DNA from: a virus
Lineage: Duplodnaviria > Heunggongvirae > Uroviricota > Caudoviricetes
Strand: one strand, 5' to 3'
Length of the DNA: 16,688 bases
Virus record (IMG/VR): IMGVR_UViG_2529293040_000016
The notes beneath the pieces are model-generated. The model was not told the origin of the DNA. It worked only from the letters and a program-made list of their open reading frames with translations, and did not search any database. Every line of letters starts with the position of its first letter. Position 1 is the first letter of the stretch. Shown here in pieces: positions 1 through 13,857 of this stretch. A program made the position numbers and the translations under genes.

Positions 1-6
1 TGAACA

Positions 7-1347: not shown

Positions 1348-2477
1348 TTTGCATTCGGTTTTTTCGTGTCCGGAATTGCCGTTTCCACTGCATCAGTTTC
1401 TGGTACTGGCGACGAGAGAGTATCAGTTGCGCTCTGATTTCTTCCTTCATCTTCAAACACGCCCTTTGTAGTCAGGTATTCAGTAATGTATTTGTTCAGT
1501 GCCACAGGGTCTTTGTGAATGTCGATCGGACGTTCACGGACAAGGCCAAAAATAGTCTGGCGGTCGTAGCGAAGGGCATCAGGCTGTTTGCGCATTGATG
1601 CCGAGATACGCTTCCAGTCTTCGCGGTCGTTGTCGATAACTTCTTTTTTTGCCCAGCGATGGATGCTGCCGTCAATGTTTCCGGCATCCACATCACCAGG
1701 CCAGAGAGCGTAGGCCAGTTCGTCATCCAGTGTTTTCCATGTCTGCTTGTATTCGCGATGAATGGCAGCAATGACCGGGCTGATTTTTCCTGTTGAATTT
1801 TCAGTGTGCTGTTGATTGGCTCTGGCGCGGGCGAGATCAACAACAGACGTGTATTTTCCGGTTTCCTTGCGTTCACCTTCGCGACGTTTTTTCCAGATGC
1901 GCATCTCTGCCTGAATTTCGGGCCATTTGGCACCAGGCTTACATTTATGCTTAACCCACCCGATGGCATGCAGCTTAAGCTCCGGATACATGGCGTTAAC
2001 TTCTGGCATTTTCATCAACGCTTCAACGATATGTCCGTCGAATGTTGCCATGTCTTCCTGCAACAATTCCTGTGCGCTAATAACCATATCAACGGTGATG
2101 TTTTCACATGTGTCGAACTTAACCATGACAGCGTTCGGTACTTCAGGGGCCAGCTTGTCAAAAGTGACGTTCATCGGATCTGATTCAGTCTCAACCGGGA
2201 CAAAGGAAGCAGACTCCTCATCCCAGCGGTTTTCCTGCATATATTCAGCATCCCAGGAATCGAGGGCAGGGCGGGGTATGCCGGGTTTATCCTCACAGAC
2301 AATAAATTTATAAGCGCAGTCCTGAGCAGCCGGATAATGTTCCAGGAATTGCCAGTGAAATTTTGCTCGAGCACGGCGTTCGTCGCCAGCTTCAATGGCT
2401 GTGGCTACAGCCACAGCGCCTTCTTCCCTTGTTGCCAGTTCGTCAGGAATAGCAGCGCAAATAAAGACTTTACTCAT
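1326..2477 (-). CDS. Prophage early-left-operon protein of unknown function (YdfE-like by position downstream of dicB/ydfD)
   Basis: 383-aa ORF, ATG at 2477 preceded by GAGG about 9 nt upstream. Same strand and tight spacing with flanking genes. No catalytic motif recognised. Naming by synteny with Qin prophage is inference. Confidence 0.7.
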
Positions 2478-2569
2478 TTTGTTTTACCTCATTACAGATT
2501 TAAGGGTGAACAAATCCCTGCCATTGCTGGCATATAAGAATGAAACCGGATGTTTATTACGGAACTGTT

Positions 2570-2761
2570 TTAAAGACCTGCCGGGATTTCGTTATTATCC
2601 TGGTGAATAACTTTATCGACCGGGTAACAGTTACCGGGAATTTTCTGTTCGGTTGCTGCAGTCACACACTCCTGCATTGTCCTGTGAACACTGACTGCAA
2701 TATCAACTGGCTCTCCGGAAACAAGAAAAACTGTCAGAACAAGTGCAAATGCTGTATTCAT
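2570..2761 (-). CDS. ydfD: Small membrane protein, YdfD-like (63 aa, N-terminal hydrophobic helix)
   Basis: ORF track 2570..2815; the internal ATG at 2761 has AGGA 8 nt upstream and overlaps the dicB stop as ATGA. Product MNTAFALVLTVFLVSGEP... is 63 aa with a single hydrophobic segment. Size and position immediately downstream of dicB match Qin ydfD from memory. Confidence 0.6.
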   Translation of the reverse strand: MNTAFALVLTVFLVSGEPVDIAVSVHRTMQECVTAATEQKIPGNCYPVDKVIHQDNNEIPAGL

Positions 2762-2946
2762 TGCCAGCATCCTTTTTGTATCGGACGTAAACGGGCCAGC
2801 ATTGAAAGAATGCATATTTTATTTAATAGCTCCCGTTCGTGTTTTCTCTTGTTAATGGCATCTTCAGTAAATACAGGGTTACTGATAGTGACACCAATTT
2901 CAAAACAACCTTCAGACGTATTAACGTTTGGTAATAACGTTTCCAT
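2758..2946 (-). CDS. dicB: Cell division inhibitor DicB (62 aa)
   Basis: Within track ORF 2758..3051; ATG at 2946 has GAGGA 7 nt upstream. Product METLLPNVNTSEGCFEIGVTISNPVFTEDAINKRK... matches my recollection of E. coli DicB nearly residue for residue. Lies directly downstream of the dicF sequence, as in Qin. Confidence 0.8.
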   Translation of the reverse strand: METLLPNVNTSEGCFEIGVTISNPVFTEDAINKRKHERELLNKICILSMLARLRPIQKGCWQ

Positions 2947-3120
2947 TATCGCGTCCTCAACAATGAATTTTGTGATGTGGTGCCTGGTGCCTCCAGGTGA
3001 CGTTAACCAGTTAACAATTAACGCCGGATACAGAGAATCCACCCATAACACTGTTTTTGGTTTTAACTGTTCCGCGTGCGCTCAGCCGCATTCACCGCAT
3101 CACAAAATTCACTTTAAAAA

Positions 3121-3173
3121 CGGCGGCAGAGCAGTCACGGAGTAAAACTGATACCGCCAAACGTCACCAGAAA
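3121..3173 (-). ncRNA. dicF: DicF small regulatory RNA (ftsZ-targeting sRNA of Qin-type prophages)
   Basis: Reverse complement of 3121-3173 reads TTTCTGGTGACGTTTGGCGGTATCAGTTTTACTCCGTGACTGCTCTGCCGCCG, essentially identical to the DicF sequence as I remember it, followed by a U-run on the minus strand. Correct position upstream of dicB. Confidence 0.8.
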
Positions 3174-3504
3174 ATTGATAACAGAGGGCGTTGCAGCGGG
3201 GTTGTCGCTTAAGCGTATGGTCAACCTGACAACCCGGTGTCCTCAACGGGGAAGGAATAACCCCGCCATACTTACCGCCGCGCCATTTCGCGGAGTGCCA
3301 CAACCGGAAGCGCACGGTCGAACTAAATTTAACGACACCGTACAGAGAGACCAATTTCGCCGTGCGCTTTCGCGTTATGCCCTGACTTTTCAGGGACATA
3401 TCCTTTCAGTAAACTGTCAGTGCCGGATGTTCACCCGTGTCCGGCGCACGCACTCCACCTGACCCGTGGAGAACTCCTTAATTACCAACCCTCAGGAGGG
3501 TGAA

Positions 3505-3783
3505 ATGGATAAAAAGCAAATTGAGGCCCTGCAATCTATTATTGAAAAACAAGATGAAGCTATCAGGATTCTTTCATATCGCACTGATATGATACTAAAT
3601 ATGCTTTCTGCATTAACGGCTGCGCTTGGTGGTACAAAAACAAACGTATACCGCGAAGTTGTTATTCAACAGATAGATAAATTTGAAAAAACCATACCAG
3701 GTATTAATGCTCATCTTGCAGAACAAGAGAAAGACCATGCTCTTATGGCAATTTCTTCAGTAGCTCTCCCGAAAGTTGAGTAG
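3505..3783 (+). CDS. Small predicted coiled-coil protein of unknown function, convergent to the early-left operon
   Basis: Track ORF 3466..3783; the ATG at 3505 is preceded by a strong SD (AGGAGGG, 5 nt spacing). Product MDKKQIEALQSIIEKQDEAIRIL... has heptad-like composition. Its 3' end overlaps the 3' end of the minus-strand 137-aa gene. Confidence 0.55.
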   Translation: MDKKQIEALQSIIEKQDEAIRILSYRTDMILNMLSALTAALGGTKTNVYREVVIQQIDKFEKTIPGINAHLAEQEKDHALMAISSVALPKVE

Positions 3784-4156
3784 TTTTAATTGTTGTTTTG
3801 AAATAATCACTGCTTTCACATTTGAGTGATTTCATGGCAATCCAAATGCGGGCCTCTGTGCCTGCATTTGGTTCCAGTTGCTGTAGACGTTTTGCGTCTT
3901 CCAAAAGTAAGGCGATAATGTGTTTCAGCTTCTCATCATTTGCTTGATTCTTGTTTTCAGGCGAATTCTGTCCGCCGAATAGGCGCTTCTCTTCATACAG
4001 ACCTATAAAGGCACGACGCACGTTACCGGATATAGTATCGATGGTTTCTTTTTCTACGGTACTCAGGTCAAGAGTCGCCAGTTGAGAGCGAACCACATTC
4101 GATGCCATTTCCTGGAATGGTACTGGTAAATCTTTAAATTCCATCGTCAACCTCAT
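3743..4156 (-). CDS. Hypothetical protein (137 aa) in dicB-type operon
   Basis: Track ORF. Start overlaps the stop of the upstream small gene as TGATG; an alternative ATG at 4144 has GAGG upstream. No family recognised. Confidence 0.6.
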   Translation of the reverse strand: MRLTMEFKDLPVPFQEMASNVVRSQLATLDLSTVEKETIDTISGNVRRAFIGLYEEKRLFGGQNSPENKNQANDEKLKHIIALLLEDAKRLQQLEPNAGTEARIWIAMKSLKCESSDYFKTTIKTTQLSGELLKKLP

Positions 4157-4308
4157 CAGTCAGTGTTTCTGGTTAACCAGCGACGCGCGCCAGCTTCAGT
4201 TTTAAACGTTTTGCTTCTGGTATACGTCATCGCGGTAAACGTGCCGTCCTGGTTGGGGAACACGCCACATACCAGAGATTCGTTGTTGCCAAGATTGAGC
4301 ATATCCAT
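4156..4308 (-). CDS. Small protein (about 50 aa), first gene of the leftward operon (YdfA-like by size and position)
   Basis: Track ORF 4156..4389; the internal ATG at 4308 has GAGG 5 nt upstream, whereas the longer N-terminal extension has no SD. Naming is inference from synteny only. Confidence 0.45.
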   Translation of the reverse strand: MDMLNLGNNESLVCGVFPNQDGTFTAMTYTRSKTFKTEAGARRWLTRNTD

Positions 4309-4493
4309 GTTGACCTCATTTCCCCTTAACGCCGGGGTAGCGGAACAAAAACCTGCTGCATAGTTATTAAAGTTGAACCCTGCCGTCATGTTCTTACGCC
4401 TCGGGCTGGCTACTTAACCCCTGACCACTGCCTGGTAACTCGAAGTATTGCCCTGCATTCTGTGGGGCGGGGTGGGTTGGTATGAAAAGAAGG

Positions 4494-4532
4494 ATACCCA
4501 TAGGTATTTAAAAAGTAAATACCTATGGGTAA
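4494..4532. promoter_or_regulatory. 39-bp near-perfect palindrome (ATACCCATAGGTATTTA - 5 bp - TAAATACCTATGGGTA), candidate left operator/promoter region
   Basis: Inverted repeat read directly from the sequence, between the repressor 3' end (4574) and the first leftward gene (4308). Half-site CCATAGGTA recurs in the repressor/cro intergenic region. Could alternatively act as an AT-rich terminator hairpin. Confidence 0.5.
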
Positions 4533-4573
4533 ATTTTTGCGGGGTCTTAACTGGTGACTAGTTGTTTGGTGAG

Positions 4574-4992
4574 CTATGATGCGTTTTGTGCTTTCTTTTT
4601 ACGGATTTCTTCGTAGATCATATTGTAATACTGTTTTTTCTCTTCAAGAGTTTTTAATAATTTATCCGCTTCACTTTCTGGCAGTTCGTCTAAGAGATCT
4701 AAAAAAATACGTTGTCGTGGCGTTAGAACCCTTGTTTCATAACTGGAGGCTGTGTTCGTTGATGATGAAACGATACCATCCATCCATCCCCGGGGTAACC
4801 CAAAGGACTCTTCGATAATCTCCACCATATCATCAGCGATCCGTTTTTTCCCTTTTTCCCCTCTGGGTACAACATTCTTGATACATAAGAAGGCTCGCGC
4901 CCGATCTTTCTGGCCACGTTAACCGCTTTACCATCGCATTTCTCATCACGAATTTTGATGAGTTGCTGTCGTCTAAATTCATATTTGTCCAT
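4574..4992 (-). CDS. Immunity repressor (N-terminal HTH) encoded in two overlapping frames; apparent -1 frameshift at an A/G homopolymer tract
   Basis: Track ORFs 4723..4992 (HTH-like ...GKAVNVARKIGREPSYVSRML...) and 4574..4828 (protein-like C-terminus ...LTPRQRIFLDLLDELPESEADKLLKTLEE...) are on the same strand, offset by -1. Both frames are open across the minus-strand GGGGAAAAAGGGAAAAAACGG tract (plus-strand 4843-4862). The ATG at 4992 has no SD. Confidence 0.6.
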
Positions 4993-5092
4993 AGGTAAAT
5001 AATAGATGCGATTACCGCAAGGTAAACAACCTGTGGGTATTGACTTTTGTTTACCTGCGGGTGTTCTTTGCTGTGTTTACTAAGGAGTAGCT
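4993..5092. promoter_or_regulatory. Divergent promoter/operator region between repressor and cro-like gene
   Basis: Repeated half-sites CCATAGGTAAAT (4989-5000), an imperfect inverted repeat ACCGCAAGGTAAAC (5013-5026) / GTTTACCTGCGGGT (5048-5061), and a TTGACT -35-like hexamer at 5040-5045. Promoter -10 elements not confidently assigned. Confidence 0.5.
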
Positions 5093-5374
5093 ATGGAAGA
5101 ATTAAGAATATTTCTCAATTCTCTTTCGTCAGATGAACAGCGTATGTTTGCATGCGAGTGTGGTACCAGCATCGGTTATCTAAGAAAGGCATTGAGTAAA
5201 GGTCAAGTGTTAGGGGCATCGTTATGTGTCCTTATTGAGCGAGCCAGTAATGGTGAAGTTACACGTCAGCAACTAAGGCCTTTTGATTGGATGAATATTT
5301 GGCCCGAGCTGGAAGATACCAAAACGTTAACACAACCACTTTCTAGGAGCTTGATTCATGAAAATCAAGCATGA
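5093..5374 (+). CDS. Cro-like HTH regulator (YdaS/DicC-type)
   Basis: Track ORF, 93 aa, strong SD AAGGAG upstream. HTH-like segment ...CECGTSIGYLRKALSKGQ.... Divergent from the repressor, which is the classical cro position. Confidence 0.75.
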   Translation: MEELRIFLNSLSSDEQRMFACECGTSIGYLRKALSKGQVLGASLCVLIERASNGEVTRQQLRPFDWMNIWPELEDTKTLTQPLSRSLIHENQA

Positions 5375-5783
5375 ACACATCCGCATGGCGATGAATGTCT
5401 GGGCGCATCCGGACGGCGAAAAAGTGCCGGCTGCGAAAATTACCAAAGCGTATTTCGAGCTGGGAATGACGTTCCCGGAACTGTATGACGACAGCCATCC
5501 GGAAGCCCTGGCCCGTAATACCCAGAAAATTTTCCGTTGGCTGGATAAAGACACCCCTGATGCTGTTGAAAAAATGCAGGCTCTGTTACCGGCGATCGAA
5601 AAGGCGATGCCGCCTTTGCTGGTGGCCCGTATGCGCAGCCACAGTTCTGAATATTACCGTGAGATCGTCGAACGGAGGGATCGGCTGGTGAAGGATGTCG
5701 ATGATTTTGTTGCGTCAGCGGTTGTTTTGTATGACCAGATGAATCGCGGCGGCCCGGCAGGGAATGCTGTGGTGATGCACTAA
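5358..5783 (+). CDS. YdaT-like / CII-like early regulator (141 aa)
   Basis: Track ORF with TAGGAG SD 8 nt upstream. Sequence resembles Rac YdaT as I recall it; position is that of cII. Family assignment is from memory, not computed. Confidence 0.7.
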   Translation: MKIKHEHIRMAMNVWAHPDGEKVPAAKITKAYFELGMTFPELYDDSHPEALARNTQKIFRWLDKDTPDAVEKMQALLPAIEKAMPPLLVARMRSHSSEYYREIVERRDRLVKDVDDFVASAVVLYDQMNRGGPAGNAVVMH

Positions 5784-5805
5784 AAGCACGGTGTTCGGGG
5801 GTTTT

Positions 5806-6768
5806 ATGAGCAGCAAGCTTCATGGTCTTGTCTGGGAAGGGTGCGCCTTCACCGGCATGATCTTATCCAGGGTGGCGGTTATGGCCCGTCTTGCAGACTA
5901 CAGCAATGACGAGGGCGTGTCATGGCCTGCCATTGAAACTATCCGGCGTCAGATCGGTGCAAGAAGTGAATCCACAGTGAAATCGGCTATTGCAGAACTG
6001 GCGAAAGAGGGCTGGCTGACGAAGGAAGAGCGTAAGGTCGGTGGGCGTAATGTAAGCAATATCTATCGGCTTAATGTGGAAAAACTCGAAGCAGCTGCGG
6101 CGGCGGCGCGTGAGTCATATAAACCGAAAAGAAAAATTAGCCCGGCAAAAAATGACCCGTTAACAGTTGACCCGTCAAATATTGACCCCTCAACGGTTGA
6201 CCCGTCAAATTTTGATGGATCAACTGTTGATAAAAAACTGCCGATTAGGGGGGCGATGATTGACCCCGATCCGTCAGTATTAAAACCTGATCCGTCAGAT
6301 AAAAGATCTTCTTGTCCGGACGCTTCGCAACCGGACCCGCAGACGGCTGAACAGGATTTTTTAACCCGACACCCTGACGCGGTTGTGTTCAGTGCGAAAA
6401 AACGCCAGTGGGGAAGTCAGGAAGATTTGGTGTGCGCACAGTGGATCTGGGGACGAATCGTGAGTCTTTACGAGCAGGCGGCCAGCTATGATGGCGAGAT
6501 CGCTAGACCGAAAGAACCCAACTGGACAGCATGGGCCAATGACGTTCGCACAATGCGGATGCTGGATGGCAGAACTCACAGACAAATTTGTGAAATGTTT
6601 GGGCGTCTCCAGCGGGATTCGTTCTGGGTAAAAAACATCATGAGTCCGGCAAAACTCCGGGAAAAATGGGATGAACTGGTTATCCGCCTGGGGCGTTCGC
6701 CTGCGCAGCGTTGCGTGAATCACATTTCTGAACCGGACACTGAAATTCCGCCGGGCTTCAGGGGGTAA
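5806..6768 (+). CDS. Replication initiator (O-like) with N-terminal winged-HTH domain and in-gene iterons
   Basis: Track ORF 5791..6768; the ATG at 5806 follows a G-rich SD. The N-terminus (...LSRVAVMARLADYSNDEGVSWPAIETIRRQIGARSESTVKSAIAELAKEGWL) is typical of phage replication-initiator HTH domains. The central DP(S/L)(T/N)(V/I) peptide repeats are encoded by tandem DNA iterons. Confidence 0.75.
   Translation: MSSKLHGLVWEGCAFTGMILSRVAVMARLADYSNDEGVSWPAIETIRRQIGARSESTVKSAIAELAKEGWLTKEERKVGGRNVSNIYRLNVEKLEAAAAAARESYKPKRKISPAKNDPLTVDPSNIDPSTVDPSNFDGSTVDKKLPIRGAMIDPDPSVLKPDPSDKRSSCPDASQPDPQTAEQDFLTRHPDAVVFSAKKRQWGSQEDLVCAQWIWGRIVSLYEQAASYDGEIARPKEPNWTAWANDVRTMRMLDGRTHRQICEMFGRLQRDSFWVKNIMSPAKLREKWDELVIRLGRSPAQRCVNHISEPDTEIPPGFRG
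6153..6242 (+). repeat. Iteron array: about six tandem 15-bp repeats (TGACCCGTCAAATNT-like), probable replication origin inside the initiator gene
   Basis: Direct repeats with 15-bp period starting at 6153, 6168, 6183, 6198, 6213 and 6228, the last two degenerate and followed by an A-rich stretch. Further related copies lie at about 6260 and 6288. Same architecture as ori-lambda within gene O. Confidence 0.65.
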
Positions 6769-6808
6769 GTGTTAATTTCTGGTCATGAGGTAATTTTCAG
6801 GAGGGCTT

Positions 6809-7231
6809 GTGGCAAAAGTTTTTACACAAGAAGAGCGGGAAAAAATTAAAGGGCAGGTTGTTGAACTCGTACGCCAGAGTGGGCGCGAGACGTTACGACA
6901 ACTGGAAACTAAAACTGGGGCAACAAGATATCTGATGAGCGTTCTGGCCAGAGAGCTGGTTGCCAGTGGCGATGTATACAACTCTGGTTACGGGTTATTC
7001 CCGTCTGAACAGGCGCGTAAGGACTGGCAAAATGCCCGTAAAAAGCTCTCAAGGGCAAAGCTGAAGAAACCATCTGCGGTTGATCCGGACCTTATCTGGT
7101 CATTACCTGACGGAGAAATACGTCGCTACGACAGGCGTCAGAACATAATCTGTCGCGAGTGCCGGAAGAGCGAAGCTATGCAGCGCGTACTGGCGTTTTA
7201 TCAGGGGAATTTTGAGGAGGTGGTGCGGTGA
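6809..7231 (+). CDS. Hypothetical protein (140 aa)
   Basis: Track ORF with GTG start and AGGAGG SD at 6794-6799. No Walker A motif, so not a DnaC/P-type helicase loader. Function unknown. Confidence 0.65.
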   Translation: MAKVFTQEEREKIKGQVVELVRQSGRETLRQLETKTGATRYLMSVLARELVASGDVYNSGYGLFPSEQARKDWQNARKKLSRAKLKKPSAVDPDLIWSLPDGEIRRYDRRQNIICRECRKSEAMQRVLAFYQGNFEEVVR

Positions 7232-7474
7232 GTGAATCAAAATGCCAGGTTAATGGCAACAAGATAGAACCATGTGCAGCACTGGCAAAGTCCCTTGAGC
7301 GTGATGCTGAATACACGATGCGAAAAGGTCTGCTGATATACAAAATCTGAAATGAGAGTTTAACTCGCGGTCCTGATTTTGTGATGTTGCGTTCCGGTGA
7401 ATTTTCTAAATTACCAGTTCGGGTTTCATTTTGTCCGTTCTGTGGTGAAAGTCTGAAAACGTGGGAGAACAGAA

Positions 7475-7786
7475 ATGAATGAAATTAAAGAAATACCAGT
7501 AGTACGTGATGAATATGGCTGCTGGACGCATCCTGAATATGAAAAATTCTGTGACGGTCGGGAATATATTTCAACGGAAGAGTTTAACGCCTGGATGGAG
7601 GAAAATAATCTTCAATACGGCCTCTGCTTCAGAGATGAAGGATGTGCTGACCTTGATGCGTGTGATGCTGATATTTCTGCATGGGAACCGGAACGACCAG
7701 AGGGCAATGGATGGTTTATTGGTTCAATACATGACACCGAAGATGGCCCGGTTTGTGTATGGCTGAGAAATAAGGTCGAAGCATAA
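7475..7786 (+). CDS. Hypothetical acidic Cys-rich phage protein (103 aa), nin-region type
   Basis: Track ORF. Codon usage and GC match the prophage backbone. No family assigned. Confidence 0.65.
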   Translation: MNEIKEIPVVRDEYGCWTHPEYEKFCDGREYISTEEFNAWMEENNLQYGLCFRDEGCADLDACDADISAWEPERPEGNGWFIGSIHDTEDGPVCVWLRNKVEA

Positions 7787-7918
7787 AGGCTATAAACCGA
7801 CTAACAACTAAATACTGAAGATTTAAATCAGAAACGATTTTTATTAAATCCTTAACCGGAGGGATTCCTGCACCCTCAAATCATCAGGAGGCCGCCCGAA
7901 AGGGCGGTGGAGATAATA

Positions 7919-8413
7919 ATGGGAATAACTAAAGAACGATTGTTGGAAATAGCAAACCTTAGTGATTGGGCATTAAGTGATGAGAGAATTGTTTCTCCTC
8001 ATGCTTATGAGTCAGTTACAAGTATAGAAATAACAACAATGGCTAGAATGCTGCTTGGTTATTTCAAAATAGAAAATAAAAAACAGATGGATAGTAATGT
8101 TGATATATGTGAGATTTTAGACGATTGGGGGGCTTGGGTTGTGGCTGGTAATAGTTCTATTGATTGGCAGGAAATAGCTGATAAATATAAAAATGTTGTT
8201 CCTCATGGTAAAAAATCACGTCGTCAGTGCAGCAATGATGAAGGGCGAATTATTGACATTAGTATCCTTAGGTTAGAAAGATATAAGCAACAAGAATATG
8301 AGTTAATTGTTGCTCATTTCGTGATTGGTTTATCTCTTCGTGCTATTGCAAAGCAACAAGGATGTTCAGATGGAACAATTCGTAAAAGATTGCAAAAAGC
8401 CTTAGGTTTTTGA
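7919..8413 (+). CDS. HTH regulator with sigma-70 region-4 / LuxR-like C-terminal helix-turn-helix (164 aa), encoded in the low-GC island
   Basis: Track ORF 7907..8413; the ATG at 7919 has GGAG 6 nt upstream. C-terminus ...EYELIVAHFVIGLSLRAIAKQQGCSDGTIRKRLQKALGF resembles sigma region 4 / LuxR HTH. Markedly AT-rich. Convergent with the three-gene cassette. Confidence 0.65.
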   Translation: MGITKERLLEIANLSDWALSDERIVSPHAYESVTSIEITTMARMLLGYFKIENKKQMDSNVDICEILDDWGAWVVAGNSSIDWQEIADKYKNVVPHGKKSRRQCSNDEGRIIDISILRLERYKQQEYELIVAHFVIGLSLRAIAKQQGCSDGTIRKRLQKALGF

Positions 8414-8435
8414 CTGGATATATAGCAATTACCAG

Positions 8436-9077
8436 TTAAGAGTCAGCGGTTTTTTTACCAGTGTAATGGTATAAGGATACTCCCATGTGTCTTACATGAT
8501 ATGGAAGCGCTGTTGCTGGATGCTTTGTGATACTCTTAAAGCGGAGGGGAGAGCCTTCCGCTTCAATTTCTGCGTCCGAAACGGTCGTAGAGAAAAATTC
8601 TTTCCATTCATTGAATTTTACTGCTGATTTGTCAGACTTTATATAAATTAGAATTCCTCCATGATCGTCACGTGACGTACCCGTGCCGTAACGTTCGGTT
8701 AGCTGAATCCAGCCATTATGAATAGATTTGGGGCCTCTCCATAATTTTGCTTCACCGATCCATTCGAATTTTCCGAATTGATGTTTAACTAATAAATCAA
8801 CGTGACCGCCATGTTGAGTATCATGTTCAACATCATAAAACCTACCTTTCAGGAAATTTTTGATCGACGCTGTTAGCTCGTCCTCTCCCCACTTAGCATC
8901 TTGATAGAAGTGTTTGTCATTTTCTAAATTCTGAATAGCGTCGTCTAAATCTTCATAGAGTTGCTTTACAAAAATATTTTTGTCTGCAGCTAATTTTCTT
9001 TGAACCATTCCCCTAAATTCAGGATCCATTCTAATTAATGATTGAAGGTCTGCAGTACAGATGTTTACATCACTCAT
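8436..9077 (-). CDS. Cassette gene 3: putative PD-(D/E)xK-fold nuclease (213 aa)
   Basis: Track ORF 8436..9140; the ATG at 9077 has GGAGAG upstream and lies 4 nt after the stop of the preceding gene. Motif GGHVDLLVK ... FEWIGEAK fits the hhhD ... hhE-x-K spacing of restriction-endonuclease-like nucleases. Assignment is inference from motif only. Confidence 0.6.
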   Translation of the reverse strand: MSDVNICTADLQSLIRMDPEFRGMVQRKLAADKNIFVKQLYEDLDDAIQNLENDKHFYQDAKWGEDELTASIKNFLKGRFYDVEHDTQHGGHVDLLVKHQFGKFEWIGEAKLWRGPKSIHNGWIQLTERYGTGTSRDDHGGILIYIKSDKSAVKFNEWKEFFSTTVSDAEIEAEGSPLRFKSITKHPATALPYHVRHMGVSLYHYTGKKTADS

Positions 9078-9498
9078 GCAGACTCTCCAAAAGACTCGAA
9101 GGAGTAAAGTATGGATAAAGATACTGGCTAAAATTATCAACCAATTCGCCAGTTTCTGGATGGTAAAAACTTCCTGTGTCTAAAGCATAGGAAATAAGAT
9201 CATCTTCAACTGGTATTGGTTCTTCCGTTAAATTATCAATGTATTGAAAATGCATATCCAATAGATGTGCTTTATAGCTAGATAAATAATCAGTTGCTTT
9301 TATTAGCAGGATATAGTCATCTTTCGTATCAGTTAGATAGGTTAAACCATTGATAAGGGTTTTGTATGTAAAGTGATTGATATTTTTAGCATCTTTACTA
9401 ACCAGAAAAAGAAAAAGATCACGACACACACTGCGAACAGGATCATTAAAATCCTGCTCTATTTGCGTGATAATGTCGTGATATATACTCTTTTTCAT
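9070..9498 (-). CDS. Cassette gene 2: acidic hypothetical protein (142 aa)
   Basis: Track ORF. Its ATG overlaps the stop of the upstream ORF as ATGA, indicating translational coupling. No recognisable domain. Confidence 0.6.
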   Translation of the reverse strand: MKKSIYHDIITQIEQDFNDPVRSVCRDLFLFLVSKDAKNINHFTYKTLINGLTYLTDTKDDYILLIKATDYLSSYKAHLLDMHFQYIDNLTEEPIPVEDDLISYALDTGSFYHPETGELVDNFSQYLYPYFTPSSLLESLHE

Positions 9499-10585
9499 TT
9501 ATGGCCTGATGATCTCGCTCTTCTTTTCTCTTCACAGGACTTAACAGAATCCAATATTTTTTCAACAATAAATATAATCGAATCAATGTTGTTACAGTTC
9601 TTCGCAATTGCTTCATGCAACCTAATTCTAGGATTATCAAGCATTGTCCTTTTTCCTGGTAATATTAACTCTACTGATAAAATATGTGAAGAACTTTGTG
9701 GTAAATCCCAAATTTTTCCCAACTTAAACTTTGTCAATATTGGGCTTGCGGACTCTCCACTATGATGGTAAACATCTTGACGCAAACACTTTTGACTTGG
9801 TTTGAGTTTTAAAGAACTTGTATTGCCATCTGAGGTGATAAAAGATACATGAGAAATTCTGCCATCTACTTTTTCGTAAAGATCTTGTATTGAACCAAAT
9901 AATTCAAGAGGATTGTTTAAAATAACGCCAGCTTCTTTTTTATAAATTTAGCCACAAGGTATTGTTGAGGCTGTGATTCACTTCTTGGAAGGATAGATAA
10001 ATCAATCGTAAGAATTAATATTTTTTCTGCAGGCATTAGCATGATGGTATTAAAGCATTGCGTGACTTGGCGTGTTTTGCATTTTATTTCTCCACCATTA
10101 GCACGTAATTCCATACCCGCATCGCTAAGATGTGTTGGGTCAAGCTCTATCACTTCAGTGTAATACGCTTTGGATAAAAAAACAGCAGTGTCAATTTGTT
10201 TATCACGAATGATATCTTGACGTAGTTCAGCAAAATGCAGCTCAGTATCAGCAACTAACAGCTCCTCTCTGGATAAAGGAATTGGGTATTTTTCTGAGAA
10301 GGGGCTATTGTCCTTTTTCTGATTTGTGAAAATTGTTTGTAATTTTGCTACGTCTTCATCGGTGATTCTATAAATAGAAAGTAATCGATTCCCGCTAAAA
10401 ATTAAACCTTTCCAGAAATCGTCGATTCTGTCTTTTAGGTCGGGATTATGCTGAACTACACTATTTACACGTTCAATAAAAAGGGGTAATCCTTGGGCCG
10501 TTACACCCAGTGATGAACCAAGAAGCTTACGGGTGTTGCGCCAGCCAAAGCGTGAATTGATGTTTTTTACTGTTTGCTCAAGCAT
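9495..10585 (-). CDS. Cassette gene 1: protein of unknown function encoded in two frames (zero-frame product 222 aa; -1 fusion product about 363 aa)
   Basis: Track ORFs 9917..10591 and 9495..9785; the ATG at 10585 has AAGGAAG 6 nt upstream. The frame of the downstream ORF is open all the way up to 9947 and is -1 relative to the upstream ORF. The overlap contains A_AAA_AAG in the zero frame (plus-strand 9935-9941). Confidence 0.55.
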
Positions 10586-10726
10586 TAACACTTCCTTAAT
10601 TTTCCCTTAACAATTTAGGGTGCTAAACTTTTTTGCGCAGTTTACATAAAAAAATAGTGCGTACGCAAAAACTATCTAACATGATGAGCTTTAACCGGGA
10701 AATTTGTATATGTTGTGAGCATAAAG

Positions 10727-10755
10727 TTGGCTGAGAAATCTAAAACGGGTAGAAT
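10727..10755 (+). promoter_or_regulatory. Candidate hok/mok mRNA promoter (TTGGCT - 17 bp - TAGAAT)
   Basis: Hexamers read from the sequence at 10727-10732 and 10750-10755. A transcript from here to the terminator at about 11181 would be about 420 nt, typical of hok mRNAs. Not verified. Confidence 0.35.
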
Positions 10756-10874
10756 GACTGCGGGTGCTTGAGGCTATCTGTCTCAGGCATGAACACCAAA
10801 AGGCAGATAGAGAAAAGCCCCAGTTAACATTACGCGTCCGGCAAGACGCTTAACATTAATCTGAGGCCATATCT

Positions 10875-11087
10875 ATGCTCTACACACGTAGGTTAGCCTC
10901 TTACGTGCCGAAAGGCAAGGAGAAGCAGGCTATGAAGCAGCAAAAGGCGATGTTAATCGCCCTGATCGTCATCTGTTTAACCGTCATAATGACGGCACTG
11001 GTAACGAGGAAAGACCTCTGCGAGGTACGAATCCGAACCGGCCAGACGGAGGTCGCTGTCTTCACAGCTTACGAACCTGAGGAGTAA
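10875..11087 (+). CDS. mok: Mok-like regulatory ORF (in-frame N-terminal extension of hok)
   Basis: 70-aa track ORF containing the hok ORF in the same frame, as in chromosomal mokC/hokC loci (recalled). Confidence 0.55.
   Translation: MLYTRRLASYVPKGKEKQAMKQQKAMLIALIVICLTVIMTALVTRKDLCEVRIRTGQTEVAVFTAYEPEE
10932..11087 (+). CDS. hok: Hok/Gef-family type I toxin (51 aa)
   Basis: MKQQKAMLIALIVICLTVIMTALVTRKDLCEVRIRTGQTEVAVFTAYEPEE is a clear Hok-family sequence (TM helix plus conserved ...TRKDLCEV...RTGQTEVAVF...). AAGGAG SD 9 nt upstream of the ATG. Confidence 0.85.
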   Translation: MKQQKAMLIALIVICLTVIMTALVTRKDLCEVRIRTGQTEVAVFTAYEPEE

Positions 11088-11154
11088 GAGACCAGGCGGG
11101 GGAGAATCCCTCGCCACCTCTGATGTGTCAGGCATCCTCAACGCACCCGCACTT

Positions 11155-11181
11155 AACCCGCTTCGGCGGGTTTTGTTTTTT
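11155..11181 (+). terminator. Rho-independent terminator downstream of hok
   Basis: Stem CCCGC (11157-11161) / GCGGG (11166-11170) with TTCG loop, followed by TTTTGTTTTTT. Confidence 0.6.
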
Positions 11182-11253
11182 CCTGGCATTCTGGTTTACA
11201 ATTCGCACGCCAGCCTGAACAACTGGCACCTGCTGCGCCAGCAGAGACAACCG

Positions 11254-11532
11254 ATGGCGCACGATACCAAATTACACAATTCTGATGATTCTGCCGTCTT
11301 TGCCAGCAGGCACGGGCGGCGTTCCCGCACTTTCAAATCTGACTGGTTCCAGCATCCCCCATGCACTGAAGAACAGGCCGAGTGGCTAATTCAGTGCTAC
11401 CGCAGACACGGATACGAGATTAAGAAAGCCCTCAGCCTCGATTATCGTCACTGGATAATCTCCGTCAGGCTTCCTTACTCCGAACGACCACCGCGTCCGT
11501 CCCGCACATTCCAGCAACGCATCTGGAGGTAA
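11254..11532 (+). CDS. Hypothetical protein (92 aa), in the position occupied by rem in Qin
   Basis: Track ORF 11125..11532 trimmed to the first ATG beyond the hok terminator. Weak SD. Function unknown. Confidence 0.45.
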   Translation: MAHDTKLHNSDDSAVFASRHGRRSRTFKSDWFQHPPCTEEQAEWLIQCYRRHGYEIKKALSLDYRHWIISVRLPYSERPPRPSRTFQQRIWR

Positions 11533-11533
11533 C

Positions 11534-12583
11534 GTGCGGGTATTACTTCGACCTGTTCTGGTACCGGAACTCGGGCTGGTGATCGTTAAGCCGGGCCGTG
11601 AATCCATGCCGGTATTCCACAATACCCGGGTACTGGTGGAGCCGGAACCGAAAAGCATGCGTAATCTGCCGTCCGGGGTCGTTCCTGCCGTTCGCCAGCC
11701 GCTGGCGGAGGATAAATCATTACTGCCATTTTTCAGCGACGAACGAGTGATTCGTGCTGCTGGTGGCGCTGGCGCATTGTCTGACTGGTTACTGCGCCAT
11801 GTTAAATCCTGCCAGTGGCCACACGGTGATTATCACCACAGTGAAACCGTCATTCACCGTTATGGTACCGGCGCAATGGTGTTGTGCTGGCACTGCGACA
11901 ACCAGCTGCGCGACCAGACCTCCGAATCACTCGGGCAACTTGCTCACCAAAACCTGTCAGCATGGATGATTGACGTCATACGCCATGCAATGAATGGCTC
12001 GCAGGAACGGGAATTATCGCTGGCTGAATTATCCTGGTGGGCGGTCCGCAATCAGGTGGCGGACGCGCTACCGGAAGCGGTATTACGTCGTTCGCTGGGG
12101 TTGCGTGCGGAAAAAATCCGCTCAATGTACCGTGAAAGCGACATCGTACCGGGAGAGCAGACCGCCACCAGCATACTGAAACAGCGCACAAAAAATCTTG
12201 CGCCGCTGCCTCACGCCCACCAGCAACAGAACCCACCACAGGAAAAGACGGTGGTCAGCATTGCCGTTGATCCTGAGTCTCCGGAATCTTTCATGAAACG
12301 ACCTAAACGTCGCCGCTGGGTTAACGAGAAATACACACGCTGGGTGAAGACACAGCCGTGTGCGTGTTGTGGTAAGCCAGCCGACGATCCCCATCACCTG
12401 ATTGGTCATGGTCAGGGCGGAATGGGGACAAAATCTCACGATATTTTCACGCTACCGCTGTGTCGGGAGCATCACAACGAGCTTCATGCGGATCCGCTGA
12501 CGTTCGAAGAAAAGCATGGTTCTCAGGTTGATTTAATTTTTCGTTTTCTTGATCACGCCTTTGCAACTGGCGTGCTTGGGTAA
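11534..12583 (+). CDS. ydfU: YdfU-like prophage protein (DUF968-type) with C-terminal Cys/His-rich HNH-like motif
   Basis: 349-aa track ORF with GTG start. C-terminal CACCGKPADDPHHLIGHGQGGMGTKSHDIFTLPLCREHHNELH resembles a zinc-binding HNH-type motif. Position upstream of rusA/Q matches Qin ydfU. Name from memory. Confidence 0.65.
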   Translation: MRVLLRPVLVPELGLVIVKPGRESMPVFHNTRVLVEPEPKSMRNLPSGVVPAVRQPLAEDKSLLPFFSDERVIRAAGGAGALSDWLLRHVKSCQWPHGDYHHSETVIHRYGTGAMVLCWHCDNQLRDQTSESLGQLAHQNLSAWMIDVIRHAMNGSQERELSLAELSWWAVRNQVADALPEAVLRRSLGLRAEKIRSMYRESDIVPGEQTATSILKQRTKNLAPLPHAHQQQNPPQEKTVVSIAVDPESPESFMKRPKRRRWVNEKYTRWVKTQPCACCGKPADDPHHLIGHGQGGMGTKSHDIFTLPLCREHHNELHADPLTFEEKHGSQVDLIFRFLDHAFATGVLG

Positions 12584-12595
12584 AAGAGGTGACTG

Positions 12596-12955
12596 ATGCT
12601 CATAGATTTGGTTTTACCTTACCCGCCGACGGTGAACACTTACTGGCGACGCCGTGGCAGCACATATTTTGTATCAAAAGTCGGTGAGCGTTATCGCCGT
12701 GATGTGGCGCTTATTGTTCGCCAGCAGCAACTGAAATTAAACCTGTCCGGAAGGCCGGCAATAGAAATTATTGCAGAGCCACCGGATAAGCGCCGTCGTG
12801 ACCTGGACAATATCCTGAAGGCACCACTGGATGTACTGACGCATGCGGGGCTGCTCATAGACGACGAGCAGTTTGATGAAATTAATATTGTGCGCGGTCA
12901 GCTTGTTCCTGGTGGGCGGTTGGGGATAAAAATCACAGAACTGGAGTATGCATGA
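12596..12955 (+). CDS. rusA: Holliday-junction resolvase RusA
   Basis: 119 aa. Conserved RusA signatures read by eye (N-terminal LPYPPTVNTYW, catalytic region PDKRRRDLDN, C-terminal GGRLGIKITE) align with E. coli RusA from memory. AGAGGTG SD. Stop overlaps the Q start as ATGA. Confidence 0.85.
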   Translation: MLIDLVLPYPPTVNTYWRRRGSTYFVSKVGERYRRDVALIVRQQQLKLNLSGRPAIEIIAEPPDKRRRDLDNILKAPLDVLTHAGLLIDDEQFDEINIVRGQLVPGGRLGIKITELEYA

Positions 12956-13641
12956 ATAACCAGTATTTACAGTTTGTTCGTGAGCAACTCATGATTGCCA
13001 CCGCCGATTTGAGTGGATCAACAAAAGGGCAGCTTGAGGCCTGGCAGGAGAATGCCATGTTTGATACAGGGCGTTACAGGCGTAAAAAAATCCGGTACCG
13101 CGATGAAGTGACTGGAAAAATGATAACGCGGGATAATCCACCAATCCCGGGAAAGCAATCGCTGGCGAAGGGGGCGTCAATTCCTCTCGTCAGTCCGGTT
13201 GAGTTTTTGACATCATCGTGGCGGCGGGCTGTTCTGTCTCTTGAAGAACATCATAAAGCCTGGTTGTTGTGGTGTTACAGCGGGAGTATTTGTTGGGAAT
13301 ATCAGATCGCGATAACACAGTGGGCGTGGAATGAATTTAATACTCAATCCGGTACCAGAAAAATTGCTGGGAAAACGCAGGAACGCCTGAAAAAATTAAT
13401 CTGGCTGGCGGCGCAGGCAGTAAAAGCAGAACTTTTTGGTGGGGAAGGTTATGAATATCAGGAGCTGGCATTACTGGCGGGAGTGACAACTAAAAACTGG
13501 TCCAAAACATTTACTCGTCACTGGGTTGCAATGAAACACATTTTTCACCGACTGGATAGTGAGGCTTTATTATTTGTAATGAGAACACGTTCAAAACAAA
13601 AGGCGGCATTTTCAAAGCAAAGTGTTGCAAAAGTAGATTGA
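12952..13641 (+). CDS. Late-gene antiterminator Q-like protein (229 aa)
   Basis: Track ORF immediately followed by a pR'-like promoter and strong intrinsic terminator, and preceded by rusA, which is the canonical nin-Q-pR'-tR' arrangement. Assignment is mainly by context. Confidence 0.65.
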   Translation: MNNQYLQFVREQLMIATADLSGSTKGQLEAWQENAMFDTGRYRRKKIRYRDEVTGKMITRDNPPIPGKQSLAKGASIPLVSPVEFLTSSWRRAVLSLEEHHKAWLLWCYSGSICWEYQIAITQWAWNEFNTQSGTRKIAGKTQERLKKLIWLAAQAVKAELFGGEGYEYQELALLAGVTTKNWSKTFTRHWVAMKHIFHRLDSEALLFVMRTRSKQKAAFSKQSVAKVD

Positions 13642-13653
13642 AAGGCATATATT
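13625..13653 (+). promoter_or_regulatory. pR'-like late promoter (TTGCAA - 17 bp - TATATT) with downstream qut-like region
   Basis: Hexamers at 13625-13630 and 13648-13653, overlapping the 3' end of the Q-like gene. Followed by a short structured leader and a terminator. Confidence 0.5.
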
Positions 13654-13706
13654 TCATGCAAATCTGATATTTTGCCGATTTTGTACGTGATGGCAAAATC
13701 AAACAA

Positions 13707-13731
13707 AACCCGCCCACAAGCGGGTTTTTTT
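13707..13731 (+). terminator. tR'-like rho-independent terminator
   Basis: Stem CCCGC (13709-13713) / GCGGG (13720-13724) with a 6-nt loop, followed by TTTTTTT (13725-13731). Confidence 0.75.
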
Positions 13732-13857
13732 GTGCCACTTATCTCGGATAGACATGGTGAATGCGCTGGTGGAGGAGATAAGGGTGATTTTTGTATGCTT
13801 GCAAGTAACCGGCTCATTTAAACCGTCTGGTCTGTTTCCTCCGGCTCTACAAAAATA

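What the first reader, a model, noticed from the sequence alone, without database searches (positions are those of the whole stretch)
10727..11181. Type I toxin locus (mok/hok with candidate promoter and terminator) abutting the unknown cassette
A Hok-family toxin with an in-frame Mok-like extension, a plausible promoter (TTGGCT-17-TAGAAT) and a clean intrinsic terminator form a complete hok-type unit of about 420 nt. The antisense Sok-like RNA should be encoded opposite the mok start region (around 10840-10930), but I could not confidently assign its promoter. The locus is divergent from, and shares its upstream region with, the promoter of the unknown three-gene operon, which also contains a palindromic element (TTTTGCG...CGCAAAA, 10630-10679).
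Basis: partly seen in the sequence, partly recalled or inferred. Interest (0 to 1): 0.45.

Follow-up and report, generated by a model that had tools for sequence, protein, structure and literature searches.

The report
Intact prophage hok/mok/sok toxin–antitoxin locus
This is an ordinary, complete copy of the well-known hok/sok "host-killing" toxin–antisense-RNA module carried by an E. coli lambdoid prophage, nearly identical to copies already annotated (hokD) or tested (hokW-sokW) elsewhere.

Summary
Window 10727-11181 carries a complete hok-type type I toxin-antitoxin unit.

- **Toxin:** a 51-aa Hok ORF at 10932-11087 (Pfam HOK_GEF, 4e-23), one residue different from K-12 HokD.
- **mok:** an in-frame ORF at 10875-11087.
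- **hok promoter and start:** TTGGCT-17-TAGAAT, with the mRNA starting at 10762.
- **Terminator:** a hairpin at 11155-11172 followed by a T run.
- **RNA model:** the hok-mRNA leader matches Rfam RF01794 over its full length (117 bits).
- **mRNA fold:** the 419-nt mRNA folds with its 5' end (tac) paired to a 3' element (fbi). That helix shows compensatory changes across 44 loci from several genera.
- **Sok:** I assign it by homology to the annotated K-12 sokC and sokB. It lies on the minus strand at 10883 to about 10807, with promoter TTGCCT-17-TAACCT at 10918-10890.

The locus is about 93% identical to the experimentally validated hokW-sokW of prophage Sp5. Matching DNA occurs in 4971 of 5426 complete E. 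coli genomes. It is therefore already known and of low interest.

Two side observations are worth recording:
- A 22-nt hypervariable patch sits exactly on the target of the Sok 5' tail.
- An invariant TadA-editing motif sits at Tyr47.

The parts
10727..10755 (+). hok promoter: -35 TTGGCT (10727-10732), 17-nt spacer, -10 TAGAAT (10750-10755)
   Evidence: The consensus scan finds it with 9 of 12 matches. The -10 box is conserved as TAGAAT, TATAAT or TATATT in 44 loci. Prophage relatives carry a -35-like TTGGC/TTTGC at the same spacing. The distance from the -10 to the start equals that of R1 hok, where the T at -7 is the last base of the -10 (PMC9841398).
10762..11180 (+). Full-length hok mRNA, about 419 nt
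   Evidence: The 5' end is position 1 of the Rfam model. The 3' end is the terminator. The minimum-free-energy fold is -169.6 kcal/mol, z = -7.9 against shuffles.
10762..10773 (+). tac (translational activator) element GGGUGCUUGAGG at the mRNA 5' end
   Evidence: It pairs with 11136-11148 in the minimum-free-energy fold. That helix is 91% paired in 44 loci, with U-A changed to C-G in 11 sequences.
10815..10821 (+). ucb (upstream complementary box, anti-SD) AAGCCCC
   Evidence: It closes the long hairpin by pairing with the mok SD in the full-length fold. It pairs with tac in the Rfam (open) structure. It is nearly invariant. The definitions come from PMC9841398.
10807..10883 (-). Sok antisense RNA, about 77 nt: 5' single-stranded tail 10883-10869, hairpin 10868-10816, then UUUUCUCU
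   Evidence: The ends are transferred from annotated K-12 sokC. sokB gives the same geometry, with the 5' end 9-11 nt inside mok. The fold is -32.1 kcal/mol, z = -5.1. The hairpin is identical to that of the validated sokW. The ends have not been mapped experimentally.
10890..10918 (-). Sok promoter: -35 TTGCCT (10918-10913), 17-nt spacer, -10 TAACCT (10895-10890)
   Evidence: It is positionally conserved in 44 loci as TTGCCT/TTGACC - 17/18 nt - TAACCT/TAATCT/TAGCCT. It is identical in Sp5 sokW. It matches only 7 of 12 consensus positions, so the scans did not pick it up.
10863..10866 (+). mok Shine-Dalgarno sequence GAGG
   Evidence: It lies 8 nt upstream of the mok ATG. It is 95-100% conserved.
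10875..11087 (+). mok ORF, 70 aa, in frame with hok
   Evidence: ORF list. K-12 mokC and hokC have the same in-frame layout. 29 of 44 loci are in frame; 10 of 44 are 1 nt longer and so out of frame.
10868..10889 (.). Hypervariable patch around the mok start codon. It covers the target of the Sok 5' tail plus the 6 nt between the Sok start and its -10 box.
   Evidence: In 78 prophage copies encoding Hok at least 98% identical, pairwise difference is 0.31 in the patch, against 0.076 and 0.04 in the flanking leader and 0.007 in hok. There are 17 variants.
10896..10900 (+). dcb (downstream complementary box) GCCUC, which pairs with the mok SD in the open form
   Evidence: Rfam structure alignment. 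It is invariant in 44 loci. The definition comes from PMC9841398.
10919..10924 (+). hok Shine-Dalgarno sequence AAGGAG, which overlaps the TTG of the Sok -35 on the other strand
   Evidence: CAAGGAG is invariant or nearly so. It lies 7 nt upstream of the hok ATG.
10932..11087 (+). hok toxin ORF, 51 aa: MKQQKAMLIALIVICLTVIMTALVTRKDLCEVRIRTGQTEVAVFTAYEPEE
   Evidence: Translation. Pfam HOK_GEF. PHROG 251, MokW-like host killing. RefSeq annotates it as hokD. It differs from K-12-type HokD by V20M.
11069..11075 (+). UUACGAA: the Tyr47 codon UAC followed by G, a TadA A-to-I editing motif. The edited A would be 11071, recoding Tyr to Cys.
   Evidence: It is invariant in 44 loci. Editing of K-12 hokC, hokD and hokE at the equivalent codon is reported in PMC12214031. 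Editing was not tested here.
11095..11115 (+). 3' stem-loop GGCGGGGGA-GAA-UCCCUCGCC, the presumed protective 3' end of the processed (truncated) mRNA
   Evidence: It is present in both folds. It is 96.6% paired, with compensatory changes (helix 18). Its role is inferred from R1 (PMC9841398).
11136..11148 (+). fbi (fold-back inhibition) element CCUCAACGCACCC
   Evidence: It pairs with tac and covaries with it.
11155..11181 (+). Intrinsic terminator: a 7-bp stem with a GC-rich core, loop TTCG, then a T run
   Evidence: Terminator scan. It is conserved in the closest relatives. Sp5 hokW diverges from this locus here.

Best explanation
This is an intact hok/mok/sok type I toxin-antitoxin module of a lambdoid (DicB/DicF-type) E. 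coli prophage. It is a full-length relative of K-12 hokD and of Sp5 hokW-sokW. The proposed mechanism is inferred from the R1 paradigm; the sequence elements for each step were verified here.

1. The hok promoter makes a stable mRNA of about 419 nt starting at G10762.
2. In the full-length RNA the 5' tac element pairs with the 3' fbi element, and the mok SD is sequestered by ucb at the base of a long hairpin. The RNA is then neither translated nor bound by Sok.
3. Slow 3' trimming removes the terminator and fbi, back to the 11095-11115 stem-loop. The 5' end refolds (tac pairs with ucb, the SD with dcb). mok becomes translatable, and hok translation is coupled to it.
4. Sok is a short-lived antisense RNA of about 77 nt, made from its own promoter inside mok. 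It pairs through its 5' tail with the mok start region, and RNase III destroys the duplex.
5. When Sok supply stops, Hok is made. This could follow loss of the element, host shut-off, or prophage induction. Hok inserts in the inner membrane and kills or lyses the cell.

In a prophage the likely pay-offs are stabilisation of the element, help with lysis on induction as shown for hokW-sokW, or both.
For: - Family signatures: Rfam RF01794 at 117 bits over the full model, and Pfam HOK_GEF at 4e-23.
- The same Rfam model hits the hok strand of K-12 hokC, K-12 hokB and Sp5 hokW at 110-118 bits. The annotated sokC and sokB are nested on the opposite strand. This fixes the position of Sok here.
- The tac/fbi stem appears in the minimum-free-energy fold of the full-length RNA, z = -7.9.
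- Over 44 loci from Escherichia, Kluyvera, Photorhabdus, Pantoea, Citrobacter and Pseudocitrobacter, tac/fbi is 91% paired, with U-A changed to C-G in 11 sequences.
- For the whole structure, 45 pairs show double changes, against 32.7 in shuffles and 20-28 in slid controls.
- The Sok promoter geometry is conserved, and Sok folds as a tail, a hairpin and a U run.
- The locus is about 93% identical to hokW-sokW, with an identical Sok promoter and hairpin. For that system, toxicity, Sok-dependent neutralisation, RNase III and Hfq dependence, and a role in lysis after mitomycin C were shown experimentally (PMC8621323).
- No IS element or truncation is present, unlike K-12 hokC and the relBE-linked K-12-type hokD.
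Against: - No transcript, toxicity or processing data exist for this copy.
- The Sok promoter matches only 7 of 12 consensus positions, and neither scan found it.
- The minimum-free-energy fold of a truncated RNA (10762-11122) shows the 5' metastable hairpin, not the open tac/ucb form. Forcing the open form costs about 27 kcal/mol in this model. The open conformation is therefore supported only by the covariance-model match and by R1 literature.
- The biological role in this prophage (addiction, lysis help or phage exclusion) is not discriminated.
Confidence: 0.9

Rival explanations
1. It is a decayed, non-functional hok relic, like most K-12 chromosomal hok loci. The sequence resembles the family, but the system no longer kills or is no longer regulated.
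For: K-12 hokA, hokC and hokE are disrupted by IS elements, and K-12 hokD lacks its regulatory elements (PMC12214031). The window shows several 1-nt deletions elsewhere relative to E2348/69. The Sok -10 box is weak by consensus.
Against: Every element is intact and in register: both promoters, tac, ucb, both SDs, mok, hok, dcb, the 3' stem-loop, fbi and the terminator. The 701 bases around the locus are 100% identical to E2348/69. In 78 prophage copies almost all positions outside one patch are at least 90% conserved, which argues for purifying selection.
Confidence: 0.06
2. It is a toxin gene without its own antisense control, expressed as part of a larger operon. K-12 hokD/relF downstream of relBE is the model, and the 'Sok' match would be a database artefact.
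For: The Rfam family named 'sok' hits the plus (hok) strand, not the antisense strand. RefSeq annotates only the hokD CDS here.
Against: relBE is absent; the upstream gene is divergent. The Rfam model covers the hok leader in K-12 too, and there the annotated sokC and sokB lie antisense within it. The leader is complete here, whereas relBE-linked copies lack it.
Confidence: 0.03
3. The unit works as hok/sok, but its selected role here is to anchor or stabilise the rare neighbouring three-gene cassette. The two would form one functional module sharing a regulatory region.
For: In 13 of the 14 E. coli genomes that have the cassette, the match runs through to the hok -10 region at the end of the query. 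The two are divergent across a 176-bp spacer.
Against: hok/sok occurs in thousands of genomes without the cassette. There are 32 different upstream contexts among 78 prophage copies. The palindrome in the spacer is at chance level. No convincing minus-strand promoter overlaps the hok promoter.
Confidence: 0.05

Closest known systems
hokW-sokW of Sakai prophage 5 (Sp5, VT2-Sakai), E. coli O157:H7
   Same: It is about 93% identical at the DNA level over 10749-11158. The tac element, Sok hairpin, Sok promoter, hok SD and fbi element are identical. It also sits in a lambdoid prophage. [quoted passage not shown]
   Different: The patch around the mok start, which is the Sok 5' tail target, differs: CCATATCTATGCTCTACACAC here against CTCAATCCATGCTGAACACAT in Sp5. 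There are several amino-acid differences in the C-terminal part of Hok. The sequence diverges after 11152, so the terminator differs. The upstream neighbours also differ.
E. coli K-12 hokD (relF) in the Qin prophage
   Same: The toxin differs by one residue, V20M. The 3' UTR with fbi and the terminator is the same. The prophage is also of the DicB/DicF type.
   Different: The K-12-type copy sits directly downstream of relBE. It lacks the hok promoter, tac, ucb, mok start and Sok. The window copy has all of them.
E. coli K-12 hokC (gef)/mokC/sokC
   Same: It has the same architecture, including an in-frame mok. The alignment is 78% identical per column. Its Rfam score is the same at 118 bits. 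Its annotated sokC was used to place Sok here.
   Different: K-12 hokC is disrupted downstream by IS186. Its Sok hairpin is 18 nt shorter, and its Sok -10 region differs.
hok/sok (parB) of plasmid R1, the paradigm
   Same: It has the same set of elements (tac/fbi, ucb, dcb, mok, hok, Sok) and the same promoter-to-start distance (PMC9841398).
   Different: The toxins are distant: HokW and R1 Hok are 44% identical (PMC8621323). R1 is a plasmid post-segregational killing system.

Membership tests
[quoted passage not shown] | Small hydrophobic Hok/Gef toxin ORF of about 50 aa | tested here: met
   A 51-aa ORF at 10932-11087. Pfam HOK_GEF 81 bits against a cut-off of 22. PHROG 251. 98% identical to K-12-type HokD. 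The NCBIfam Hok models match below their cut-offs.
[quoted passage not shown] | An upstream overlapping mok reading frame with its own SD, through which hok is translated | tested here: met
   SD GAGG at 10863-10866 and ATG at 10875. The ORF runs into hok in frame. The ATG and SD are conserved in 39 of 44 loci. Translational coupling itself cannot be tested here.
[quoted passage not shown] | hok mRNA leader with the conserved secondary structure (tac/ucb stem, target hairpin, SD/dcb stem) | tested here: met
   Rfam RF01794 at 117.1 bits against a gathering score of 59, covering the full model.
[quoted passage not shown] | Long-range 5'-3' fold-back (tac/fbi) that locks the full-length mRNA | tested here: met
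   It is present in the minimum-free-energy fold. It is 91% paired over 44 loci, with compensatory U-A to C-G changes in 11.
[quoted passage not shown] | A cis-encoded antisense Sok RNA with its own promoter, complementary to the mok translation initiation region | tested here: inconclusive
   It is placed by homology to annotated sokC and sokB. The promoter geometry is conserved and identical to the validated sokW. The promoter matches only 7 of 12 consensus positions, and no expression data exist.
[quoted passage not shown] | Refolding of the 3'-processed mRNA into a translatable, Sok-accessible form | tested here: inconclusive
   The pairing partners exist. The thermodynamic prediction for 10762-11122 prefers the 5' metastable hairpin, and the enforced open form is about 27 kcal/mol worse.
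[quoted passage not shown] | Hok toxicity, neutralisation by Sok, and RNase III cleavage of the duplex | not testable with these tools
   Shown for the relative hokW-sokW, about 93% identical (PMC8621323).

The most novel reading that the evidence does not exclude
The 22-nt patch around the mok start (10868-10889) covers the target of the Sok 5' recognition tail. It occurs as discrete, strongly divergent alleles. Among 78 prophage copies with at least 98% identical Hok there are 17 variants, while the rest of those loci is nearly identical. The patch alleles are shuffled relative to the upstream context. This could reflect diversifying selection for non-cross-reacting Sok specificities. Such selection would keep co-resident prophage or plasmid hok/sok copies from neutralising one another, and would prevent resident copies from acting as anti-addiction modules. 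The recent Hok survey read here did not analyse Sok sequences, and I did not check the older literature. If the reading is right, this window simply carries the commonest allele.
Probability: 0.35. Interest if true: 0.4.

Novelty: already known. Interest (0 to 1): 0.12.

Why it matters
Its main value is for annotation. RefSeq marks only the hokD CDS here. mok, Sok, both promoters and the tac, fbi, ucb and dcb elements can now be placed to the base. This shows that the copy is a complete module, unlike the crippled K-12 hokD. Anyone cloning or deleting the neighbouring unknown cassette should know that a potentially lethal locus, whose antitoxin promoter lies inside mok, starts 140 bp away. The hypervariable Sok-target patch gives a cheap, testable handle on how many hok/sok copies can coexist in one genome.

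Tried and rejected
- **Palindrome as operator.** The inverted repeat has 8-nt arms separated by 26 nt. 418 of 2000 dinucleotide shuffles give one as good. I rejected it as evidence of regulation.
- **Shared divergent promoter.** Neither the strict nor the relaxed scan finds a convincing minus-strand promoter in 10586-10761. This is unresolved, and the claim is not supported.
- **The -35 box lying in strain-specific DNA.** Megablast homology to most copies begins at 10749. Alignments show that relatives keep TTGGC/TTTGC at the same spacing. The promoter therefore belongs to the module.
- **Truncated-mRNA folding.** I folded a truncated mRNA to look for the open conformation. The minimum-free-energy fold gives the metastable 5' hairpin instead.
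- **Local tRNA-like hairpin around the UACG editing motif.** None is predicted to be stable.
- **Mutated Sok promoter bases of sokW and R1.** I looked in the papers' supplements, but none are held.
- **The three cassette proteins.** Pfam, NCBIfam and PADLOC give nothing useful. PHROGs returns only families of unknown function. Phage records hold no DNA match.
- **R1 parB.** It was not aligned directly.

Full report
**Where the window comes from**

The window is a lambdoid prophage of E. coli. Bases 1-13804 are 99.6% identical to E2348/69 (NC_011601.1). The 701 bases around the finding are 100% identical.

The prophage carries dicB and a DicF sRNA (Rfam 72 bits at 3121-3172, minus strand). It also carries a nin-type region with DUF968, RusA and Q genes.

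RefSeq annotates a 51-aa CDS at window 10932-11087 as 'type I toxin-antitoxin system toxin HokD'. It annotates nothing else in the locus.

**Check of the observation**

- The promoter TTGGCT-17-TAGAAT (10727-10755) and the terminator hairpin 11155-11172 with its T run are the plus-strand hits that belong to the locus in a consensus scan of 10550-11300.
- The 70-aa ORF at 10875-11087 contains the Hok ORF in the same frame.
- It matches Pfam HOK_GEF at E=4e-23 and PHROG 251, 'MokW-like host killing'.
- Rfam RF01794 matches 10762-10937 on the plus strand at 117 bits, E=1e-26, over the entire model.

**What the Rfam 'sok' match actually models**

Despite its name, this Rfam family models the hok mRNA leader, not the antisense RNA.

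- In K-12 it hits the hokC/mokC and hokB/mokB strand at 118 and 110 bits. The annotated sokC and sokB lie nested on the opposite strand.
- The model's first base, G10762, lies 7 nt after the last T of TAGAAT. R1 hok has the same geometry, where the last T of the -10 box is at -7 (PMC9841398).

**Anatomy of the mRNA**

The definitions of tac, fbi, ucb and dcb are taken from PMC9841398.

- The minimum-free-energy fold of 10762-11180 is -169.6 kcal/mol, z = -7.9. It pairs the 5' end (tac, 10762-10773) with 11136-11148 (fbi). It also closes a long hairpin by pairing the mok SD (GAGG, 10863-10866) with GCCCC (ucb, 10817-10821).
- The Rfam structure represents the alternative open form. In it GGG.GCUU pairs with AAGCCCC (tac/ucb), and GAGGC pairs with GCCUC at 10896-10900 (SD/dcb).
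- The stem-loop at 11095-11115, just upstream of fbi, corresponds to the protective 3' end of the processed mRNA in R1.
- Folding a truncated RNA (10762-11122) did not give the open form. It gave a 5' hairpin in which tac pairs with the sequence immediately downstream. This resembles the 'metastable' nascent structure described for R1 (PMC9841398).
- The conformational switch is therefore inferred, not shown.

**Comparative support**

A scan of one genome per species returned 66 loci encoding relatives of this Hok. They include Escherichia, Shigella, Kluyvera, Photorhabdus, Pantoea, Citrobacter and Pseudocitrobacter. I aligned 44 of them that carry a leader.

- On the window's predicted structure, 84.8% of cells are paired, against 36-43% for slid controls.
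- 45 pairs show changes on both sides, against 32.7 in shuffles and 20-28 in slid controls.
- The tac/fbi helix is 91% paired, with U-A replaced by C-G in 11 sequences.
- Copies linked to relBE, the K-12 hokD/relF arrangement, lack the whole leader. The window copy is thus the complete form of which K-12 hokD is a truncated derivative.

**Placing Sok**

- K-12 sokC starts 9 nt inside mokC. It ends 50 nt upstream of the mokC ATG, about 43 nt downstream of the hokC mRNA 5' end. sokB starts 11 nt inside mokB.
- Transferred through the alignment, Sok here runs on the minus strand from about 10883 to about 10807.
- It folds as a 15-nt 5' tail, a long hairpin (10868-10816) and UUUUCUCU (-32.1 kcal/mol, z = -5.1).
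- Upstream on the minus strand lies TTGCCT (10918-10913), a 17-nt spacer, and TAACCT (10895-10890).
- The layout TTGCCT/TTGACC - 17/18 nt - TA(A/G)(C/T)CT is kept in most of the 44 loci. The hokC group departs in the -10 box.
- The TTG of the -35 box overlaps the invariant hok SD, CAAGGAG, on the other strand.
- The promoter and hairpin are base-for-base identical to the corresponding sequence of Sp5 hokW-sokW. In that system, sokW promoter mutations unleashed HokW toxicity and sokW in trans partly rescued it (PMC8621323).

**mok frame**

The in-frame mok is normal for this family.

- K-12 mokC is in frame with hokC, while mokB is not.
- Among the 44 loci, 29 have a 57-nt in-frame mok-to-hok offset and 10 have 58 nt.
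- It is therefore translation of mok that is conserved, not the Mok peptide.

**Mechanism and role**

The most likely mechanism is the R1 scheme.

1. A stable, locked full-length mRNA is made.
2. Slow 3' trimming removes fbi.
3. The RNA refolds and exposes the mok SD.
4. Abundant but unstable Sok then pairs with the mok start region, and RNase III cleaves the duplex.
5. Hok is produced once Sok is no longer replenished.

The sequence elements for every step are verified here. The steps themselves are inferred.

For the closest tested relative, mitomycin C lowered sokW, raised HokW in a RecA-dependent way, and halved phage release when the locus was deleted (PMC8621323). Help with lysis on induction is therefore a plausible role, besides prophage stabilisation. 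These alternatives cannot be separated here.

**The neighbouring cassette and the spacer**

- The three minus-strand genes encode proteins of 363, 142 and 197 aa in E2348/69. In the window they span 8435-10585.
- They are present in 14 of 5426 complete E. coli genomes. In all 14 the three genes occur together, and in 13 the match runs through to the hok -10 region.
- hok/sok itself occurs in 4971 genomes. Among 78 prophage copies it has 32 different upstream contexts.
- The cassette is therefore one rare occupant of a variable slot beside a conserved module. It is not a partner of hok/sok.
- The spacer palindrome is at chance level.
- No convincing promoter for the cassette was found in the spacer.

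**Side observations**

1. A viral-contig scan returned 80 loci encoding Hok at least 98% identical to this one, and 78 of them carry the leader. In those 78, almost every position of the 440-nt locus is at least 90% conserved. The exception is 10868-10889, which has 17 variants. Pairwise difference there is 0.31, against 0.04-0.076 in the flanking leader and 0.007 in hok.
2. This patch covers the Sok 5' tail target plus the few bases between the Sok start and its -10 box. Patch types are shuffled relative to upstream context. Because Sok is cis-antisense, any change alters toxin target and antitoxin together. Discrete specificity alleles are a reasonable but untested reading.
3. The Tyr47 codon lies in an invariant UUACGAA (11069-11075). 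K-12 hokC, hokD and hokE are reported to be A-to-I edited by TadA at the equivalent tyrosine, recoding it to a cysteine that is DNA-encoded in HokA and HokB (PMC12214031).

**Verdict**

The finding is real and correctly interpreted. It is a textbook system that is already annotated and has been experimentally characterised in a relative about 93% identical. Novelty: already known. Interest: low.

Noticed in passing
window 10868-10889: A hypervariable 22-nt patch around the mok ATG, covering the Sok 5' tail target. There are 17 variants among 78 prophage copies that are otherwise nearly identical. Pairwise difference is 0.31 there, against 0.007-0.076 elsewhere in the locus. The window carries the commonest variant (23 of 78).
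   Followed up: partly
window 11069-11075 (A at 11071): The Tyr47 codon UAC followed by G lies in UUACGAA, which is invariant in 44 loci. This is the TadA A-to-I editing motif. Editing of K-12 hokD at this codon is reported at 6% (PMC12214031). A local hairpin is not predicted to be stable.
   Followed up: partly
window 8435-10585, minus strand: A three-gene cassette of unknown function, encoding proteins of 363, 142 and 197 aa in E2348/69. It matches PHROGs 12777, 11490 and 9664, all of unknown function. There is no Pfam or NCBIfam hit, and only one weak PADLOC match (E=0.0014). It is present in only 14 of 5426 complete E. coli genomes, with the three genes together in all 14. Phage records hold no DNA match. 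It occupies a variable slot upstream of hok that shows 32 different contexts among 78 prophage copies.
   Followed up: partly
window 1366, 4843, 8406, 9935: Four single-T deletions relative to E2348/69, each within a run of 5-6 T. The one at 9935 splits the 363-aa cassette gene into ORFs of 224 and 96 aa. They look like homopolymer sequencing errors or slippage, not biology.
   Followed up: yes
window 7917-8438 (+) and 12952-13641 (+): Two antiterminator-Q-type genes lie in one prophage and bracket the cassette and hok/sok. The first also gives weak sigma-70 region-4-like NCBIfam matches. This suggests a mosaic junction between two lambdoid genomes.
   Followed up: no
window 3121-3172, minus strand: A DicF sRNA (Rfam RF00039, 72.5 bits, full length) lies next to dicB, as in the K-12 Qin prophage.
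   Followed up: no
Rfam RF01794, seen at window 10762-10937, L002 402-554, L070 467-618: The Rfam family named 'sok antitoxin' matches the hok mRNA strand and spans the 157-position leader. The annotated sokC and sokB are antisense and nested within it. Strand calls from this model therefore need to be inverted to locate Sok.
   Followed up: yes
alignment A2 (44 loci); L002, L070: The mok reading frame is in frame with hok in 29 of 44 loci and shifted by 1 nt in 10 of 44. K-12 mokC is in frame and mokB is out of frame. The Mok peptide sequence is therefore not what is conserved.
   Followed up: yes
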